UHGV virus genome: UHGV-0162601
Length of the DNA: 37,895 nucleotides
Strand: one strand, 5' to 3'
Source of the DNA: a virus
The translations under genes and the position numbers were made by a program. A model generated the notes under the pieces. The model worked only from the letters and a program-made list of their open reading frames with translations, was not told the DNA's origin and did no database searches. Below, piece by piece: positions 1 to 37,895 of the stretch. Numbering within the stretch: the first letter of the stretch is position 1; each line of letters begins with the position of its first letter.

Positions 1-101
1 AATACGATATCTTTGATTCCTAGTTTCTTCAGATTAGTTAAACAAACTTCAAGCTTCCATTTAAACCGATTGATTGCCGGCTGACAAAGAATATACTTCA
101 T
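1..101 (-). CDS. N-terminal part (33 codons) of a GT8-like glycosyltransferase gene that continues in frame at 37895 if the window is circular
   Basis: ATG at 101-99 preceded by AGGTGA (112-107). The frame is open to position 1 (MKYILCQPAINRFKWKLEVCLTNLKKLGIKDIV). The last 2 nt plus the complement of 37895 form a TTG codon and the frame continues without a stop into ORF 37121..37828. Confidence 0.5.
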   Translation of the reverse strand, partial: MKYILCQPAINRFKWKLEVCLTNLKKLGIKDIV

Positions 102-110
102 TCTGATCAC

Positions 111-1271
111 CTACGCTTGTGTTGTAGTTGTTGTGGTTGTTGGTTTTGTAGTTGTAGTAGTAGTTCCCAAAGCGCTAATATCTAATACAATGAAACTATC
201 ATTACGTTTAGGTTGTCCGTTTGCATATTGTTTAGCTAGATAAATGCGTTCGTCTTCAACAAAATGGTATTCATCTGAAGCTTCAATTTTTAGCGTAGAT
301 CCTACACCCATGAAGTAATCTGAAGCTACCCCAATAACTGCTTTTCCTTCTGGCACAGCTGTTGACTGCAAGTCTGAAACTGGTACTGGCAATACTTGTA
401 CATATTCTCCATTAGCAGTTAGTACGGTTTTAGCTGGGAAAACTTTAGACCAGTAATCTGTTGGATTCACAATTAGGACCACATCAGAAGGATTTACATT
501 ACGATAAATCGGATCATCTACGCCTTCGATATTGAATTTTGATAGTCGTGCCATCAAACCACCCATCGTTGCAGCATCTAATGCTGTAATAGGTTCTGCT
601 GTTTTTTCAGCATATTCTCCGCTAGTTTGTTTGCTCATGTCACGCATCATTCCGACTGGCATATCTTTACCAGTACCATCAACAATTGCTTGTTCTAATG
701 CAATTCTCAATGATTCTACTAGAACAGTACGGACATAACGATCTAACCATACTGGACCTAAGTCAAGCATTGCCTTACATACAGGAATATAACCTGATAG
801 CTTGAACTGCTTCATGTTAATTACGTCAAAGCCATTATCTAAAACTTTTTTAACAGCTTCGCACAGTTTTCCCCACCATGCTGGATTGACTCCACGTGAC
901 ACAATCCATTCTGTTACACCAGTTGTGTTAACAAAAGTAATTTTTTGCAACAGTGGATGAGATTGTTCTAGATCTTCAAATACGCGTTCAAATACAGTAG
1001 CTGGTACTAATTCTTCAACTCCTGCAAAACCTTCGTTATTCACTACTTCGTTATAGAATTTTGTTTCTTGTGTAGTTAGTACACGCTGACCACGGTTCAT
1101 TAATACTAATTGATCTTGATTTTTTGCTGTTGCTTCTTCTAAAATTTTATCCTGTATTTCCTTAGATAAACTTACCATAGCTGCGCTAAAAGACTCTTCG
1201 TTACCATCTTTAAAAGCTTTCATCAATTGGTCGCTTGCAGCTGTTACACCTTTTAAATTTTTAACTGTCAT
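111..1271 (-). CDS. major capsid protein, HK97 family, with C-terminal ...TTTTTTKPTTTTTTTQA tail
   Basis: 386 aa, position after the ClpP-like protease, and typical HK97-fold MCP length. The C-terminal poly-Thr uses mixed ACN codons. Confidence 0.85.
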   Translation of the reverse strand: MTVKNLKGVTAASDQLMKAFKDGNEESFSAAMVSLSKEIQDKILEEATAKNQDQLVLMNRGQRVLTTQETKFYNEVVNNEGFAGVEELVPATVFERVFEDLEQSHPLLQKITFVNTTGVTEWIVSRGVNPAWWGKLCEAVKKVLDNGFDVINMKQFKLSGYIPVCKAMLDLGPVWLDRYVRTVLVESLRIALEQAIVDGTGKDMPVGMMRDMSKQTSGEYAEKTAEPITALDAATMGGLMARLSKFNIEGVDDPIYRNVNPSDVVLIVNPTDYWSKVFPAKTVLTANGEYVQVLPVPVSDLQSTAVPEGKAVIGVASDYFMGVGSTLKIEASDEYHFVEDERIYLAKQYANGQPKRNDSFIVLDISALGTTTTTTKPTTTTTTTQA

Positions 1272-22161: not shown

Positions 22162-22199
22162 AAAAGTTCCTCCTTAATGGTAACTAAATTTTTATGTGC

Positions 22200-22290
22200 C
22201 CTGTAGAATTAAAACCTCCAATCAGATAGTTATAAGCCATCTGATCTGACCAGCTGAGCTAAAGGTACGGAAAGCCATCACAACTACTGC
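22200..22290 (-). other. tRNA-like fragment: D-arm consensus TAGCTCAGCTGGT plus an anticodon-arm-like hairpin (gatgg-cttataa-ctatc); no T-arm
   Basis: Minus-strand ttagctcagctggtcaga. Incomplete cloverleaf. Confidence 0.2.
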
Positions 22291-35064: not shown

Positions 35065-35670
35065 TTAAGCTTGAGTCGTTGTAGTAGTGGTTGTTGAACT
35101 CTTTTTAATCACATCAGCAGATAGATTCGTCATCCATTGATCTGTTAAGTCTTCTTCAAGTTCTGCAACAATTGCTTCATGATAGAATTTACCAAATTCA
35201 TCTTGCATAACTTTTGTTTCTAGTTCTAAAGCAGCTACTTCATCCGCACCATTTTCAATAGAGAATGTTAATCCTGTATTCGAAGTGCATGCTAACATAC
35301 CAACTAACTTGCTATTTTCTTCGAAGTCATCCACGATCTCTGCAGCAAGTGAGAAATCTTCGCCTACGGAATCAGGACCGTAAGAGTAAATGCCTGGTTT
35401 AATACGTTCATCTTGTTTCAACCCATTGAAACGTCGATAAACTTCCATCGGTACATGTGCAGTAATTGTTACCGTCATATTGATTGGTTTAGATTTTGAT
35501 TTTACTTCTGTCGCTCCACATTTTTTAACCACCGTTTGCATTTCTGTTTCGCCATCTAATTGTCCGTTACAATCTGTTGCGATTGCATTTTCTGCATTCT
35601 TAAAATTAAAAGCAATTCGTTTGATACTCACGTTATCGAACGTTGTTACTACAGTTGTTGTTTTAGCCAT
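35065..35670 (-). CDS. major tail protein with C-terminal ...SSTTTTTTTQA tail
   Basis: 201 aa, position upstream of the G/GT chaperones. The poly-Thr uses mixed codons (ACT/ACG/ACA/ACC). Confidence 0.8.
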   Translation of the reverse strand: MAKTTTVVTTFDNVSIKRIAFNFKNAENAIATDCNGQLDGETEMQTVVKKCGATEVKSKSKPINMTVTITAHVPMEVYRRFNGLKQDERIKPGIYSYGPDSVGEDFSLAAEIVDDFEENSKLVGMLACTSNTGLTFSIENGADEVAALELETKVMQDEFGKFYHEAIVAELEEDLTDQWMTNLSADVIKKSSTTTTTTTQA

Positions 35671-35681
35671 TGTTGTTCCTC

Positions 35682-36095
35682 CTATTTATTTAATTTATCG
35701 AATTGACGAATCAGAAGTTCTGTAATTGGATCAAGTGCAAGACCTAATCCTCTTCTCATGAATTCGTCTGGCTGATTTCTTTTAGAAGTACCTATCCCCA
35801 AATCAGGATATTTTAAATACTCAAATTTTCTTGTAGGTCTAATGATGAAACCCAAATTAATATATTGAGTCTTAAGTGGACGACTATTTTTTGCGTGTTG
35901 GTGTCCTCTTCTTAAATCTGCTTCAGAAACAGGAATTTTTTCTGTAATCCTATCCACTGCAATAGCCGAACCCTTCGATTTCAATGCTTCATTGATCAGT
36001 CGTTCACTCTCGCTTGAATAGCGTTCCATCCGCACAAGAAGTTCATCATGCCCATTTATTTTTAGCTCCCAACTATTTTTAGCCATGACAATCAC
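35682..36095 (-). CDS. tail terminator / tail-completion neck protein
   Basis: 137 aa, position immediately upstream of the major tail gene. Confidence 0.45.
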   Translation of the reverse strand: MIVMAKNSWELKINGHDELLVRMERYSSESERLINEALKSKGSAIAVDRITEKIPVSEADLRRGHQHAKNSRPLKTQYINLGFIIRPTRKFEYLKYPDLGIGTSKRNQPDEFMRRGLGLALDPITELLIRQFDKLNK

Positions 36096-36480
36096 TCTTC
36101 AATAATCGTCTAAACGTAAATACCAATTGATCGATATAGCGATCTTGATTTTCTAGTTTTAAATGGTTGGGATCCATTCTCTGAAAACGAATCGAACGAT
36201 TTTGAATCAATGAAATAATATCTAGTGAATCTCCTGTTAAATCTTCTCTATTTTCTGAATAGAAAGTTAGATATAGATTTTGACCCACGCTATATTTTGG
36301 TTCAGTGATCATTTCTATTTCTCCTGTTTCGAGAATGAAGTAATTAAAATCATCAGGTAGCTCATCCTCGCCAACAGAGTCTTGAAAGAGTTTGAGCTTA
36401 AAATGTTCTTCTAAGGAAGTTTTGATAGCAGAAATTTGCTTATTTAAACGTTCTTTTTCTTTAGAATTATCAATAACCAT
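36079..36480 (-). CDS. neck protein (HK97 gp10-like tail-to-head joining)
   Basis: 133 aa from MVIDNSKEKERL after RBS GGGTGA. Position. Confidence 0.45.
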   Translation of the reverse strand: MVIDNSKEKERLNKQISAIKTSLEEHFKLKLFQDSVGEDELPDDFNYFILETGEIEMITEPKYSVGQNLYLTFYSENREDLTGDSLDIISLIQNRSIRFQRMDPNHLKLENQDRYIDQLVFTFRRLLKSDCHG

Positions 36481-36826
36481 ATTCACCCACACTTTCAAGA
36501 TAAAAATAGATATAAAAATTATCGTAATCGGCATAGATAACGTTGTAACGCATACTATCGATTACGATAAAATATTGATCTTTATTAAATTTCTTGGCGA
36601 TCGGATGAAATGGAGTCTTTACTTTCTTAGTTAATTTCGATCCCATCGCATCCATAGCTGTTATATCACTATCTCTCATGGAAAGATTTCTAAATTTTAA
36701 AGAAGTGATTTCTGTATCTTCTACACCAATCTTTTTTCCTAGTTCATTTCTTTTGGTAGTTTGCGTCAAAATCTTTAACCAACCATCGTTGAATGTTTCT
36801 TCGAGTCTACGATTATTCGCCATTCC
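36470..36826 (-). CDS. head closure protein
   Basis: 118 aa from MANNRRLEE after AGGTGA. Start overlaps the upstream stop. Confidence 0.45.
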   Translation of the reverse strand, partial: GMANNRRLEETFNDGWLKILTQTTKRNELGKKIGVEDTEITSLKFRNLSMRDSDITAMDAMGSKLTKKVKTPFHPIAKKFNKDQYFIVIDSMRYNVIYADYDNFYIYFYLESVGEYGY

Positions 36827-37124
36827 CATCACCTGCAATATATTCTTGTAGCGCATAATGTTGAATGAAACCTAATAACTCACTAGCGAAATTTTGTTCA
36901 AACTCATCTAAAGCACGATTCCAGTCGTATCTACATCTTTCGATTAGCAATCCGTATTCTAAGCTTTCAGGAGAAAAAGAAAGTGTTGTACTCACTTTAC
37001 TTTGAAGATAAACAGCATTTTTAGCTATCATCTTTTTAATTGACTCATCTTCTTCGTTCCAGGTAACGTAAATATTATCCTTCACAGCTATTAGCAATTC
37101 TTCAGTCACTTGTTCAGGCGTCAT
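36813..37124 (-). CDS. head-tail connector (gp6-like adaptor)
   Basis: 103 aa, first small gene after the capsid/GT genes. Confidence 0.5.
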   Translation of the reverse strand: MTPEQVTEELLIAVKDNIYVTWNEEDESIKKMIAKNAVYLQSKVSTTLSFSPESLEYGLLIERCRYDWNRALDEFEQNFASELLGFIQHYALQEYIAGDGNGE

Positions 37125-37895
37125 CTAACCACCGCCTTAATTGCTTTAACATATGCGTAAGAGCATTTTTTCTTGTTTACAAATGATAAATCTTCATCAA
37201 AAGGCGTGGAAGTAACGTATCTCCCTTTGAAAAATAAATCTTCATCATTTGTTGTTACTCCAGCGTTATGCAAGATTTTTACTTCTTTAAATTTTTCTAT
37301 TGGATCAGTAGCAAAACAAAAGTTTAATTCCTCGTGAACTTTAGGACCAATATTGAAATACATCATGTTCCAAAGCTGTGCCCACATCTCGGCTGTCCAA
37401 ATCTGTACATTTGTTTTTTGCCCTCTAAGGTAGCGATATAGCCGATTAGAATCCAGATAAACCTTTTTCCAATAATTCGCTTTAGGACGGTTAATAACCC
37501 ACTGTGCGCCTCCTGAATTAGTGTTTATAGTTTCCAAAGATTCTACTCTAACATTTACAATATTTGCCATATCTTTTAGAATATTTTCTCCGTTTTCACA
37601 GCTTCTAATATAATCAAGACTTAGATAACTACAGCAGTCGCTACAATACCAAACATCATCTTTAGAAGGCAATTTGCGCAAATTAATTCTTTTATTGAAA
37701 ATGACATCCGAATCGATATAGAAATATCGGTCGTCCTCACGCGAATGATCTTCTTCTAAATATTTCCACCATAAATATGGTTTAATCGAAGGAATATACT
37801 CTTTGTCGTCCCGCAGATCATCGTACACATGAACTTCAACGCCATATTCCTTCTCAAAAAAAATAGGAATCTGATCATCGTGTCTGCTGAAAAGC
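37121..37895 (-). CDS. GT8-family (LgtC/RfaJ-like, GT-A fold) glycosyltransferase, 5' end runs off the window edge and continues at 1..101
   Basis: DxD motif in RYFYIDSDVIF matches GT8 LYLDSDIIV. Downstream NTNSGGAQWVINRPKANYWKK matches GT8 FNSGVLLINLKKWR. The frame is open to 37895. Confidence 0.5.
   Translation of the reverse strand, partial: LFSRHDDQIPIFFEKEYGVEVHVYDDLRDDKEYIPSIKPYLWWKYLEEDHSREDDRYFYIDSDVIFNKRINLRKLPSKDDVWYCSDCCSYLSLDYIRSCENGENILKDMANIVNVRVESLETINTNSGGAQWVINRPKANYWKKVYLDSNRLYRYLRGQKTNVQIWTAEMWAQLWNMMYFNIGPKVHEELNFCFATDPIEKFKEVKILHNAGVTTNDEDLFFKGRYVTSTPFDEDLSFVNKKKCSYAYVKAIKAVVR

What the first reader, a model, noticed from the sequence alone, without database searches (positions are those of the whole stretch)
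35065..35100. Major tail protein carries the same C-terminal Thr7-Gln-Ala tail as the capsid protein
...KKSSTTTTTTTQA-COOH. The shared motif on the two most abundant surface-exposed virion proteins suggests a common post-translational recognition site (glycosyltransferase sequon, or a shared processing or decoration signal).
Basis: seen in the sequence. Interest (0 to 1): 0.8.

Follow-up and report, generated by a model that had tools for sequence, protein, structure and literature searches.

The report
Poly-threonine sugar-acceptor tails on phage coat
In this Enterococcus phage the capsid and tail-tube proteins both end in the same run of seven threonines, and that kind of tail always travels with one unannotated sugar-transferase gene, so the virus probably coats itself with sugars; this has been shown only for mycobacterial phages.

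Summary
The major tail protein (35065..35670, minus strand) ends KKSSTTTTTTTQA. The major capsid protein (111..1271, minus strand) ends GTTTTTTKPTTTTTTTQA. No other ORF in the window has a run of four or more threonines.

Comparative evidence:
- All 19 GT lineages sampled (161 loci) have a C-terminal poly-Thr protein close by.
- The 266 such proteins fall into 18 families that BLAST does not link: capsid, tail tube, decoration, FN3 mini-proteins and a portal.
- Relatives with 82-87% identical capsids either have the GT and tails on both proteins, or lack all three.
- Listeria phage PSA, the closest studied relative, has neither.
- The residues after the Thr run co-vary between capsid and tail protein. 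Three loci show DNA-level gene conversion.

Best reading: a portable poly-Thr O-glycosylation tag served by a phage GT. This is a Firmicutes counterpart of mycobacteriophage virion glycosylation, with a different enzyme and acceptor. The glycan itself has not been demonstrated. Confidence 0.72, interest 0.7.

The parts
35065..35670 (-). Major tail (tube) protein gene, 201 aa.
   Evidence: PHROG 117 at E 7e-19. 41% identical to PSA Tsh, syntenic. AF2 model matches tail-tube chains.
35065..35100 (-). The finding itself: codons for SSTTTTTTTQA plus the stop. Predicted disordered C-terminal poly-Thr tail of the tail protein and proposed O-glycosylation acceptor.
   Evidence: Translation. pLDDT below 50 for residues 191-201. 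Allelic variants QA, RA, KKA, KKV and TSVVTTTATQSQ in related prophages.
111..1271 (-). Major capsid protein gene (HK97 fold), 386 aa.
   Evidence: Pfam PF05065 and PHROG 10. 50% identical to PSA Cps.
111..167 (-). Capsid C-terminal tail GTTTTTTKPTTTTTTTQA plus the stop. Two Thr blocks; the last nine residues are identical to the tail protein's.
   Evidence: Length polymorphism in relatives.
1..101 (-). 5' part of the candidate glycosyltransferase gene (start codon at 101..99). It begins 10 nt after the capsid stop codon.
37121..37895 (-). 3' part of the candidate glycosyltransferase gene. Joined product is 291 aa and soluble. Belongs to PHROG 4417 'unknown function'; no Pfam hit.
35682..37124 (-). 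Four small head-tail connector and neck genes between the GT gene and the tail protein gene. All lie in one late operon.
   Evidence: ORF map. Synteny with 4995_1 (head closure protein and others) and with PSA gp6-gp9.

Best explanation
The window is a complete, circularly permuted temperate siphophage of Enterococcus faecium with a PSA-like structural module. Its late operon encodes a soluble cytoplasmic GT-A glycosyltransferase directly downstream of the capsid gene. It belongs to an unannotated family, PHROG 4417, and its fold is GT8-like and of the retaining type.

The capsid and tail-tube proteins each end in a disordered poly-threonine tail: T6-KP-T7-QA on the capsid protein and SS-T7-QA on the tail protein. 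The proposed mechanism has three steps. First, the enzyme binds a UDP-sugar and a divalent metal through D95-x-D97 and H243. Second, it transfers sugar to the Thr (and Ser) hydroxyls of these tails. Third, the assembled head and tail therefore carry a dense, mucin-like O-glycan brush.

The tail is a portable tag. In other phages with the same enzyme it sits on unrelated capsid, tail-tube, decoration, FN3 and portal proteins. Within a genome it is copied between the capsid and tail genes by gene conversion and is then kept by selection on the protein sequence.

Shown here: the sequences, the fold, the conserved motifs, the co-occurrence, the matched presence and absence, the co-variation and the gene conversion. 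Inferred: that sugar is transferred at all, the donor and linkage, and the biological benefit. The benefit could be shielding from antibodies or proteases, or altered adhesion.
For: Enzyme
- AF2 model with pLDDT 96.4 and pTM 0.92.
- BFVD hits include viral GT8 proteins.
- Y93, D95, D97, H243, G246 and K257 are invariant in 46 homologues down to 52% identity.
- Longer family members are fused to GT2 and Glyco_transf_7C domains, and to a PqqD peptide-recognition domain.

Association
- 159 of 160 GT-positive loci had at least one ORF with a run of five or more Thr in its last 25 residues, against none in 6 GT-less records (five genomes and the GT-less half of 4995_1). The single exception was an ORF-calling miss.
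- After dereplication, 19 of 19 GT clusters (90% identity) have such a protein. In 14 of them it is the gene immediately upstream of the GT.
- All 266 tailed ORFs fall into 18 families that BLAST does not link.

Matched controls
- With capsid proteins 82-87% identical to the window's, L170, L171 and L172 have the GT and poly-Thr on both proteins. L167, L168, L169 and L173 lack the GT and lack poly-Thr on both.
- PSA, PK5.2, BMBtp13, phiCD6356 and CECAV_A40 lack both.
- Fisher's exact test on 5/5 against 0/9 gives p = 5e-4. It is not corrected for phylogeny.

Tag behaviour
- The residues after the Thr run are identical in the two tailed proteins in 27 of 61 unique pairs, against 8.7 expected; no permutation of 10,000 reached 27.
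- In L048, L054 and L055 both genes end in T7KKA or T7KKV. In L048 and L054 the last 30 coding nt are identical between the two genes, including the A-to-V change in L054; in L055 they differ at one synonymous base.
- In the window the nine shared residues persist despite randomised synonymous sites.
- The tail is predicted to be disordered.
- In relatives the tail protein's C-terminus carries an Ig-like domain (CECAV_A40) or a frameshift extension (PSA). It is therefore a known decoration point.

Precedent
- Phage-encoded GTs O-glycosylate mycobacteriophage Che8 capsid protein (Freeman 2023, via PMC11256854 and PMC13445384).
Against: - No direct evidence of a glycan: no mass spectrometry, glycostain or mobility data exist for this phage or any relative in the literature I could search.
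- The enzyme matches no Pfam GT model, in any of 46 members, and no solved structure by sequence. The GT call rests on a predicted fold and motifs.
- Only one GT is encoded, so any glycan would be short unless host enzymes extend it.
- About half of the closest prophages have a much less Thr-rich tail on the tail protein yet keep the GT. Some GT-positive phages (VPE25, SA2, bIL285) have a tail on the tail protein but not on the capsid protein. Modification of any one protein is therefore dispensable.
- The co-occurrence counts are inflated by relatedness. The independent units are about 19 lineages.
Confidence: 0.72

Rival explanations
1. The poly-Thr tails are unmodified. They act as hydrophilic, flexible 'entropic bristles' or spacers on the virion surface. 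The GT-like protein acts on another substrate such as host wall teichoic acid, cell-wall polysaccharide or phage DNA.
For: Nothing here shows a sugar on the proteins. Low-complexity Thr runs expand and contract by slippage (length polymorphism). Prophage-encoded GT-A enzymes that modify host teichoic acids are known (own knowledge: S. aureus TarP).
Against: This reading does not explain why the tails occur only where the GT occurs, across 19 lineages and 18 unrelated carrier families, or why both are lost together in relatives 82-87% identical. The GT sits inside the late structural operon, usually directly after a tailed gene, not in a lysogenic-conversion or DNA-metabolism module. The protein is soluble with no membrane segment. 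The same gene occurs in phage groups described as lytic (VPE25, per PMC4999554; Herelleviridae Bacchae), where lysogenic conversion makes no sense.
Confidence: 0.1
2. The enzyme modifies the Thr tails with a group other than a plain glycosyl residue, for example a sugar-1-phosphate, a glycerol- or ribitol-phosphate, or a nucleotide. The tag would be real but the chemistry would not be classical O-glycosylation.
Confidence: 0.1
3. The shared 3' ends are a recoding or processing signal, as in the closest characterised relative, Listeria phage PSA. There both cps and tsh share a +1 frameshift site that yields C-terminally extended forms.
For: The capsid and tail proteins are homologous and syntenic to PSA Cps and Tsh. 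PSA uses +1 frameshifting on a proline codon near the 3' end of both genes (PMC5009743). Many GT-less homologues end in '...TP*' in both genes, so shared 3' signals are a theme in this lineage.
Against: The window has no CCC or proline codon at either 3' end. Neither alternative frame downstream is open: stops follow within a few codons, and the next genes start 10 and 20 nt downstream. Poly-Thr tails also occur on unrelated proteins in phages unrelated to PSA, always with the GT.
Confidence: 0.03
4. The identity of the two tails is only a by-product of gene conversion between two short repeats. It has no functional meaning.
For: In L048 and L054 the last 30 coding nt of the two genes are identical, including a shared A-to-V change in L054; in L055 they differ at one synonymous base. 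A rare ACC codon sits at the same position in both window tails.
Against: Conversion explains similarity between the two tails but not their existence, their Thr composition, their presence on 18 unrelated carrier families, or their strict link to the GT. In the window the synonymous sites have diverged while all nine residues are retained.
Confidence: 0.05

Closest known systems
Mycobacteriophage virion O-glycosylation (Che8, Corndog, Myrna and others; Freeman et al. 2023, Cell Host Microbe 31:1216; paper not held, cited through PMC11256854 and PMC13445384, details from my own knowledge)
   Same: Phage-encoded glycosyltransferases. Acceptors are C-terminal extensions of both the major capsid and the tail-tube subunits. 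The result is a glycan coat on head and tail, and GT genes co-occur with the C-terminal motifs.
   Different: The host phylum differs (Firmicutes, not Actinobacteria). Here there is one GT, from a family that no Pfam model recognises, placed inside the structural operon next to the acceptor gene. Che8 instead has several annotated GTs near the genome's right end (PMC11256854). The acceptor here is a near-pure poly-Thr run rather than a mixed Ser/Thr/Ala/Gly/Pro extension. The tag is found on many more carrier types. No experimental proof exists here.
CAZy GT8-type retaining GT-A glycosyltransferases (LgtC, glycogenin, GlyE of the pneumococcal serine-rich-repeat protein pathway, Skp1 alpha-galactosyltransferase)
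   Different: Sequence identity is only 9-13%. There is no hit to PF01501 or to any GT Pfam model, and no hit to any solved structure by sequence. The spacing of the C-terminal His...Lys motif differs. Donor sugar and acceptor specificity are unknown.
Eukaryotic mucin-type O-glycosylation of Pro/Thr/Ser-rich (PTS) domains
   Same: Disordered Thr-rich acceptor stretches punctuated by Pro or Lys (T6-KP-T7; (T7-x-x-P)n in L069, L072 and Bacchae). Dense clustered sites exposed on a surface. The enzyme fold is GT-A in both.
   Different: The enzyme family is unrelated (GT27 ppGalNAc-transferases with a lectin domain, acting in the Golgi). Here the enzyme is cytoplasmic and bacterial-viral. The resemblance is functional analogy only.
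Listeria phage PSA Cps/Tsh programmed +1 frameshifting (Zimmer et al. 2003, summarised in Atkins et al. 2016, PMC5009743)
   Same: Homologous capsid and tail proteins and the same gene order. In both phages the two most abundant virion proteins share a special 3'-terminal feature that changes the exposed C-terminus.
   Different: PSA uses a CCC slip site and overlapping ORFs to add peptide extensions, and has no GT and no poly-Thr. The window has poly-Thr and a GT, with no slip site and no extension ORF.

Membership tests
Phage virion O-glycosylation system (Freeman 2023 type) | Phage-encoded glycosyltransferase. | tested here: met
Phage virion O-glycosylation system (Freeman 2023 type) | Ser/Thr-bearing C-terminal extensions on both the major capsid and the tail-tube subunits. 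| tested here: met
   Capsid protein ends ...T6KPT7QA and tail protein ends ...SST7QA. Tail predicted disordered. Tails absent from GT-less homologues.
Phage virion O-glycosylation system (Freeman 2023 type) | Co-occurrence of the GT and the acceptor motif across phages. | tested here: met
   19 of 19 GT lineages have tailed proteins. 7 matched relatives and 5 more distant ones split perfectly.
Phage virion O-glycosylation system (Freeman 2023 type) | Glycan chemically demonstrated on virion proteins and dependent on the GT. | not testable with these tools
   Needs mass spectrometry, glycostaining and a GT knockout. No such report was found.
CAZy GT8 / Pfam Glyco_transf_8 (PF01501) | Sequence match to the family model. 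| tested here: not met
   None of 46 family members hits any GT Pfam model, even at E up to 10. No PDB sequence hit.
CAZy GT8 / Pfam Glyco_transf_8 (PF01501) | GT-A fold with a DxD metal and nucleotide-sugar motif. | tested here: met
CAZy GT8 / Pfam Glyco_transf_8 (PF01501) | C-terminal His-x-x-Gly-x-x-Lys-Pro-Trp type motif supplying the third metal ligand. | tested here: inconclusive
   H243, G246 and K257 are invariant (H-N-A-G...K-G) but the spacing differs. No residue-level superposition was possible with the tools.
PSA-type programmed +1 frameshift in cps/tsh | CCC (Pro) slip codon followed by a stop or pseudoknot near the 3' end. | tested here: not met
   The window 3' ends are ...ACA CAA GCG TAG and ...ACT CAA GCT TAA, with no Pro codon. 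The PSA sites are ACA CCC UCC and ACA CCC UGA.
PSA-type programmed +1 frameshift in cps/tsh | Open alternative frame giving a C-terminal extension. | tested here: not met
   Both alternative frames close within a few codons of the normal stop.
Serine-rich-repeat glycoprotein pathway (GtfA/GtfB plus accessory GT8 enzymes, SecA2 export) | GtfA/GtfB priming pair, long SRR domains and accessory Sec export. | tested here: not met
   GtfA/GtfB and SecA2 were not searched for directly. Indirect evidence: PGAP annotates no GT or Sec gene in the 97%-identical phage. Acceptors are short Thr tails on cytoplasmically assembled virion proteins.

The most novel reading that the evidence does not exclude
PHROG 4417 is a dedicated virion protein O-glycosyltransferase, and 'poly-Thr plus 1-3 terminal residues' is a self-contained, transferable C-terminal glyco-tag. 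The enzyme recognises the tag near the free C-terminus, which would explain why the terminal residues co-vary between the capsid and tail proteins of one phage. Phages spread the tag among their surface proteins by gene conversion. The resulting mucin-mimicking coat changes how gut and dairy Firmicutes phages meet mucus, proteases, antibodies or intracellular capsid- and tail-sensing defence systems. This would include the VPE25-like Enterococcus and Sextaecvirus (SA2-like) Staphylococcus phages. If so, any phage or protein could be glyco-engineered by appending about 10 residues and co-expressing one 291-aa enzyme.
Probability: 0.35. Interest if true: 0.85.

Novelty: new variant of a known kind. 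Interest (0 to 1): 0.7.

Why it matters
Virion glycosylation has been shown experimentally only in mycobacteriophages, where the glycan coat can alter antibody production and block antibody binding to the capsid (as summarised in PMC11256854). Three things would follow if the reading here is right.

- The same strategy would exist in Firmicutes phages, using an enzyme family that current annotation calls 'hypothetical'. That family has 867 clusters at 50% identity and occurs in 77 deposited phage genomes, including the Enterococcus VPE25 group, Staphylococcus Sextaecvirus, Lactobacillus Herelleviridae and lactococcal and L. casei prophages.
- It would affect how therapeutic and dairy phages are judged for serum neutralisation, protease stability and mucus binding.
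- It would provide a minimal enzyme-plus-tag pair for engineering glycans onto phage particles.

The hypothesis is directly testable with one knockout and one mass measurement. The analysis also shows that one lineage of capsid and tail genes has solved 'decorate both head and tail' in three interchangeable ways: frameshift extensions, fused Ig-like domains, and poly-Thr tails with a GT.

Tried and rejected
- **Sequence-level identification of the GT failed.** Pfam found nothing for the window protein or for any of 46 homologues. A profile search of PDB sequences gave only noise. PHROGs gave a family of unknown function. Only structure prediction and fold search were informative.
- **PSA-type recoding was considered** because PSA is the nearest studied relative. 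It was rejected for the window: no slip codon and no open alternative frame.
- **Read-through fusion of capsid protein and GT.** The GT start codon is in frame with the capsid gene, three codons after its TAG. I treated this as coincidence because the arrangement is not conserved: the GT follows the tail protein gene in phiFL1A, SA2 and phiCTP1 and is out of frame in VPE25.
- **Another GT or sugar-pathway gene in the phage.** None is annotated in the 97%-identical phage 4995_1.
- **Literature.** Ten searches found no report of glycosylated virions or of this gene family in Enterococcus, Lactobacillus, Lactococcus, Staphylococcus or Clostridium phages. The Freeman 2023 paper itself is not in the held library.
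- **One apparent exception.** L071 looked like a GT locus without a tailed ORF, but the tailed FN3 gene there lacks an ATG start, so my ORF caller missed it.

Full report
**What the window is**

The window is about 35% G+C. Over the structural region it is 96.7% identical to Enterococcus phage 4995_1, a 39-kb circular prophage-derived genome from E. faecium. Nearly all structural genes lie on the minus strand. The ORF that runs off both ends of the window joins into one 876-nt gene. Its product is 98% identical to a contiguous 4995_1 protein. The window is therefore a complete, circularly permuted phage genome.

**Checking the observation**

- window:35065-35670(-) encodes a 201-aa protein ending ...DVIKKSSTTTTTTTQA*. 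The finding's coordinates, 35065..35100, are exactly SSTTTTTTTQA plus the stop codon.
- This protein is the major tail (tube) protein. It matches PHROG 117 at E 7e-19. It is 41% identical to the Tsh protein of Listeria phage PSA and sits in the same position in the gene order. Its AlphaFold model matches solved tail-tube chains.
- The capsid protein, 111..1271(-), matches Pfam Phage_capsid and PHROG 10. It ends ...ISALGTTTTTTKPTTTTTTTQA*.
- The last nine residues of the two proteins are identical.
- Among 72 six-frame ORFs of at least 60 aa, these are the only two with any run of four or more Thr, and both runs are C-terminal.
- The two 27-nt coding stretches differ at six positions, all synonymous. 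Third positions of the Thr codons agree no more often than codon usage predicts: 2 of 7 observed against about 2.4 expected. The identity is therefore held at the protein level and is not a recent DNA duplication.

**The candidate glycosyltransferase (GT)**

- The 291-aa product has no Pfam hit. It belongs to PHROG 4417, 'unknown function'.
- None of 46 homologues hits a GT model, even at permissive thresholds. A profile search of PDB sequences finds nothing.
- With a 46-sequence alignment, AlphaFold gives a confident model: pLDDT 96.4, pTM 0.92.
- Y93, D95, D97 (a DxD motif), H243, G246 and K257 are invariant across the family.
- The protein has no hydrophobic segment, so it should act in the cytoplasm, where virions assemble.
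- The family is large: 867 clusters at 50% identity and 77 deposited phage genomes. The genomes come from Enterococcus, Lactobacillus, Staphylococcus, Lactococcus, Clostridium and other hosts.
- Some longer members are fused to GT2 or GT7 domains. Others are fused to a PqqD-type peptide-recognition domain or to radical-SAM/SPASM domains. Both kinds of fusion fit a glycan-building, peptide-directed enzyme.

**The decisive comparative result: the GT and poly-Thr tails travel together**

I fetched 160 IMG/VR and GenBank loci that encode a homologue.

- 159 of the 160 had at least one ORF with a run of five or more Thr in its last 25 residues. The exception, L071, was an ORF-calling miss: the tailed gene there has no ATG start.
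- After dereplication at 90% GT identity there are 19 lineages, and all 19 have such a protein. In 14 of them it is the gene immediately upstream of the GT.
- All 266 tailed ORFs fall into 18 families that BLAST does not link. These are five capsid families, at least six tail-tube families, a head-decoration protein, small FN3/Ig-like proteins with long (T5-8-x-x-P)n repeats, and the phiCTP1 portal.
- Six GT-less control records contain none.

Matched controls give the same answer.

- Among capsid homologues 82-87% identical to the window's, L170, L171 and L172 encode the GT directly after the capsid gene and carry poly-Thr on both proteins.
- L167, L168, L169 and L173 have no GT anywhere in the locus and no poly-Thr on either protein.
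- Tail protein homologues show the same split.
- PSA, PK5.2, BMBtp13, phiCD6356 and CECAV_A40 share this capsid and tail lineage at 34-50% identity. They have neither feature.

**How the two tails stay alike**

- Across 61 unique capsid/tail-protein tail pairs, the residues after the last Thr run are identical in 27. Permutation predicts 8.7, and no permutation of 10,000 reached 27. Examples are QA/QA, SHA/SHA, SHV/SHV, HG/HG, KKA/KKA and KKV/KKV, and L170 has SGK/SGK. Relatedness inflates this figure, but the matches also hold within lineages.
- In L048, L054 and L055 both genes end in T7KKA or T7KKV. In L048 and L054 the last 30 coding nt are identical between the two genes, including an A-to-V change that L054 shares; in L055 they differ at one synonymous base. 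That is the signature of gene conversion between the two 3' ends, which lie about 2.9 kb apart.
- In the window the synonymous sites have since diverged while all nine residues are kept. That argues for selection on the peptide.
- The tail is not rigidly fixed. About half of the near-identical E. faecium prophages carry KKTSVVTTTATQSQ on the tail protein. The capsid tail also varies in length.

**Most likely mechanism**

The GT is co-expressed from the late operon. It would use a UDP-sugar and a metal bound by D95/D97/H243 to glycosylate the Thr hydroxyls of the disordered tails; the tail protein's residues 191-201 have pLDDT below 50. Heads and tails would then carry a dense, mucin-like O-glycan layer.

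The tail protein's C-terminus is a known external decoration point in this lineage. It carries an Ig-like domain in CECAV_A40 and a frameshift extension in PSA.

- Shown: sequence, fold, motifs, association, co-variation and conversion.
- Inferred: the transfer itself, the donor, the linkage and the benefit.

**Rivals**

- *Unmodified spacer tails, with the GT acting elsewhere.* This does not explain the strict linkage, the operon position, or the gene's presence in phage groups described as lytic.
- *A non-sugar modification.* This cannot be excluded from fold alone, but the best matches are true GTs by about 5 Z units.
- *PSA-type recoding.* Rejected: no slip codon and no open alternative frame.
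- *Pure gene conversion.* This explains likeness between the tails but not their existence or their link to the GT.

**Comparison with what is known**

The closest known system is the O-glycosylation of capsid and tail-tube C-termini in mycobacteriophages (Freeman et al. 2023; paper not held, cited through PMC11256854 and PMC13445384). This case works like that one but differs in several ways:

- the host phylum;
- the enzyme, a single GT of a family that no Pfam model recognises, embedded next to its substrate gene;
- the acceptor, a near-pure poly-Thr run;
- the breadth of carrier proteins.

By fold the enzyme resembles GT8, but it fails the sequence test for membership. I found no report of virion glycosylation, or of this gene family's function, in Firmicutes phages. 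I therefore rate it a new variant of a known kind.

**Verdict**

Confidence is 0.72 that the tails are acceptor sites for this enzyme. Interest is 0.7. The hypothesis is specific and widespread, touches Enterococcus and Staphylococcus phage groups relevant to phage therapy, and can be settled with one knockout and one mass spectrum.

Noticed in passing
L084 (Geobacillus phage PK5.2), L082 (PSA), L085; proteins P0165-P0234: In GT-less relatives both the capsid and the tail protein end in '...TP*' (PK5.2: TPTP* and VPTP*; PSA Tsh: ATP*). Dozens of Bacillus capsid homologues end GTTTP*, ETPTP* or VPTP*. This looks like a widely conserved PSA-type CCC_stop +1 frameshift site that is not annotated in these genomes.
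   Followed up: partly
L168 7070..7297 (Candidatus Enterococcus murrayae prophage): A 75-aa ORF overlaps the 3' end of the capsid gene by about 74 nt and contains a SAP/HeH-like motif (ADEMRNELDIKGVEYKSTDTK). The motif resembles the frameshift extension of PSA Cps-L (VELKEELDKRGITYNTSDLK). This is a likely unannotated recoded capsid extension.
   Followed up: partly
L167 7203..7403, L169 7203..7583, L173 5791..6024; L069 7302..7718, L071 1783..2205, L072 8871..9230; L089 19057..21161 (phage Bacchae): In GT-less close relatives, the slot after the capsid gene that holds the GT in the window holds a small Ig-like ORF instead. In other phages, small Ig/FN3-like proteins with long mucin-like (T5-8-x-x-P)n repeats sit directly upstream of the GT. 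In the Herelleviridae phage Bacchae, three such small poly-Thr proteins flank the GT, far from the annotated structural genes.
   Followed up: partly
window 99..113 (minus strand): The GT start codon is in the same reading frame as the capsid gene, three codons after its TAG stop (..QA* V I R M K Y..). Stop-codon read-through would fuse capsid protein to GT. This is probably coincidental, because the arrangement is not conserved in other lineages.
   Followed up: partly
L048, L054, L055 (IMG/VR E. faecium prophages): The capsid and tail protein 3' ends match over the last 30 coding nt and encode T7KKA or T7KKV: they are identical in L048 and L054, including an Ala-to-Val change that L054 shares, and differ at one synonymous base in L055. 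This indicates recent gene conversion between two genes about 2.9 kb apart.
   Followed up: yes
L001 and L008-L039 (tail protein allele); L051, L058, P0122 (capsid protein); P0392: The tail protein tail is dimorphic in near-identical prophages (SST7QA versus TSVVTTTATQSQ). The capsid Thr blocks vary in length (T5-T10, plus one block duplication). P0392 is a tail protein fused to the next gene through an indel in the T/A run, so the tail-coding repeats appear prone to slippage.
   Followed up: partly
P0279, P0304, P0283, P0294, P0380 (distant GT-family members): Long members of the GT family are fused to PqqD (a RiPP recognition element), radical-SAM/SPASM, GT2, Glyco_transf_7C or methyltransferase domains. 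The family may also act in peptide natural-product or glycan pathways outside phages.
   Followed up: no
L091 1434..3023 (Clostridium phage phiCTP1 gp4): The 529-aa gp4, which I take from its size and position after the terminase gene to be the portal, also ends in a poly-Thr stretch followed by an acidic tip (..TTTSTTEPITTTTTTMNNNEED). The putative head-decoration protein gp11 and the tail protein gp18 of the same phage are tailed as well.
   Followed up: no
window 22195..22268 (minus strand): A tRNA-Ile with anticodon TAT lies between the lysis and integration regions. 4995_1 also carries a tRNA-Ile, next to IS3-family transposase remnants.
   Followed up: no
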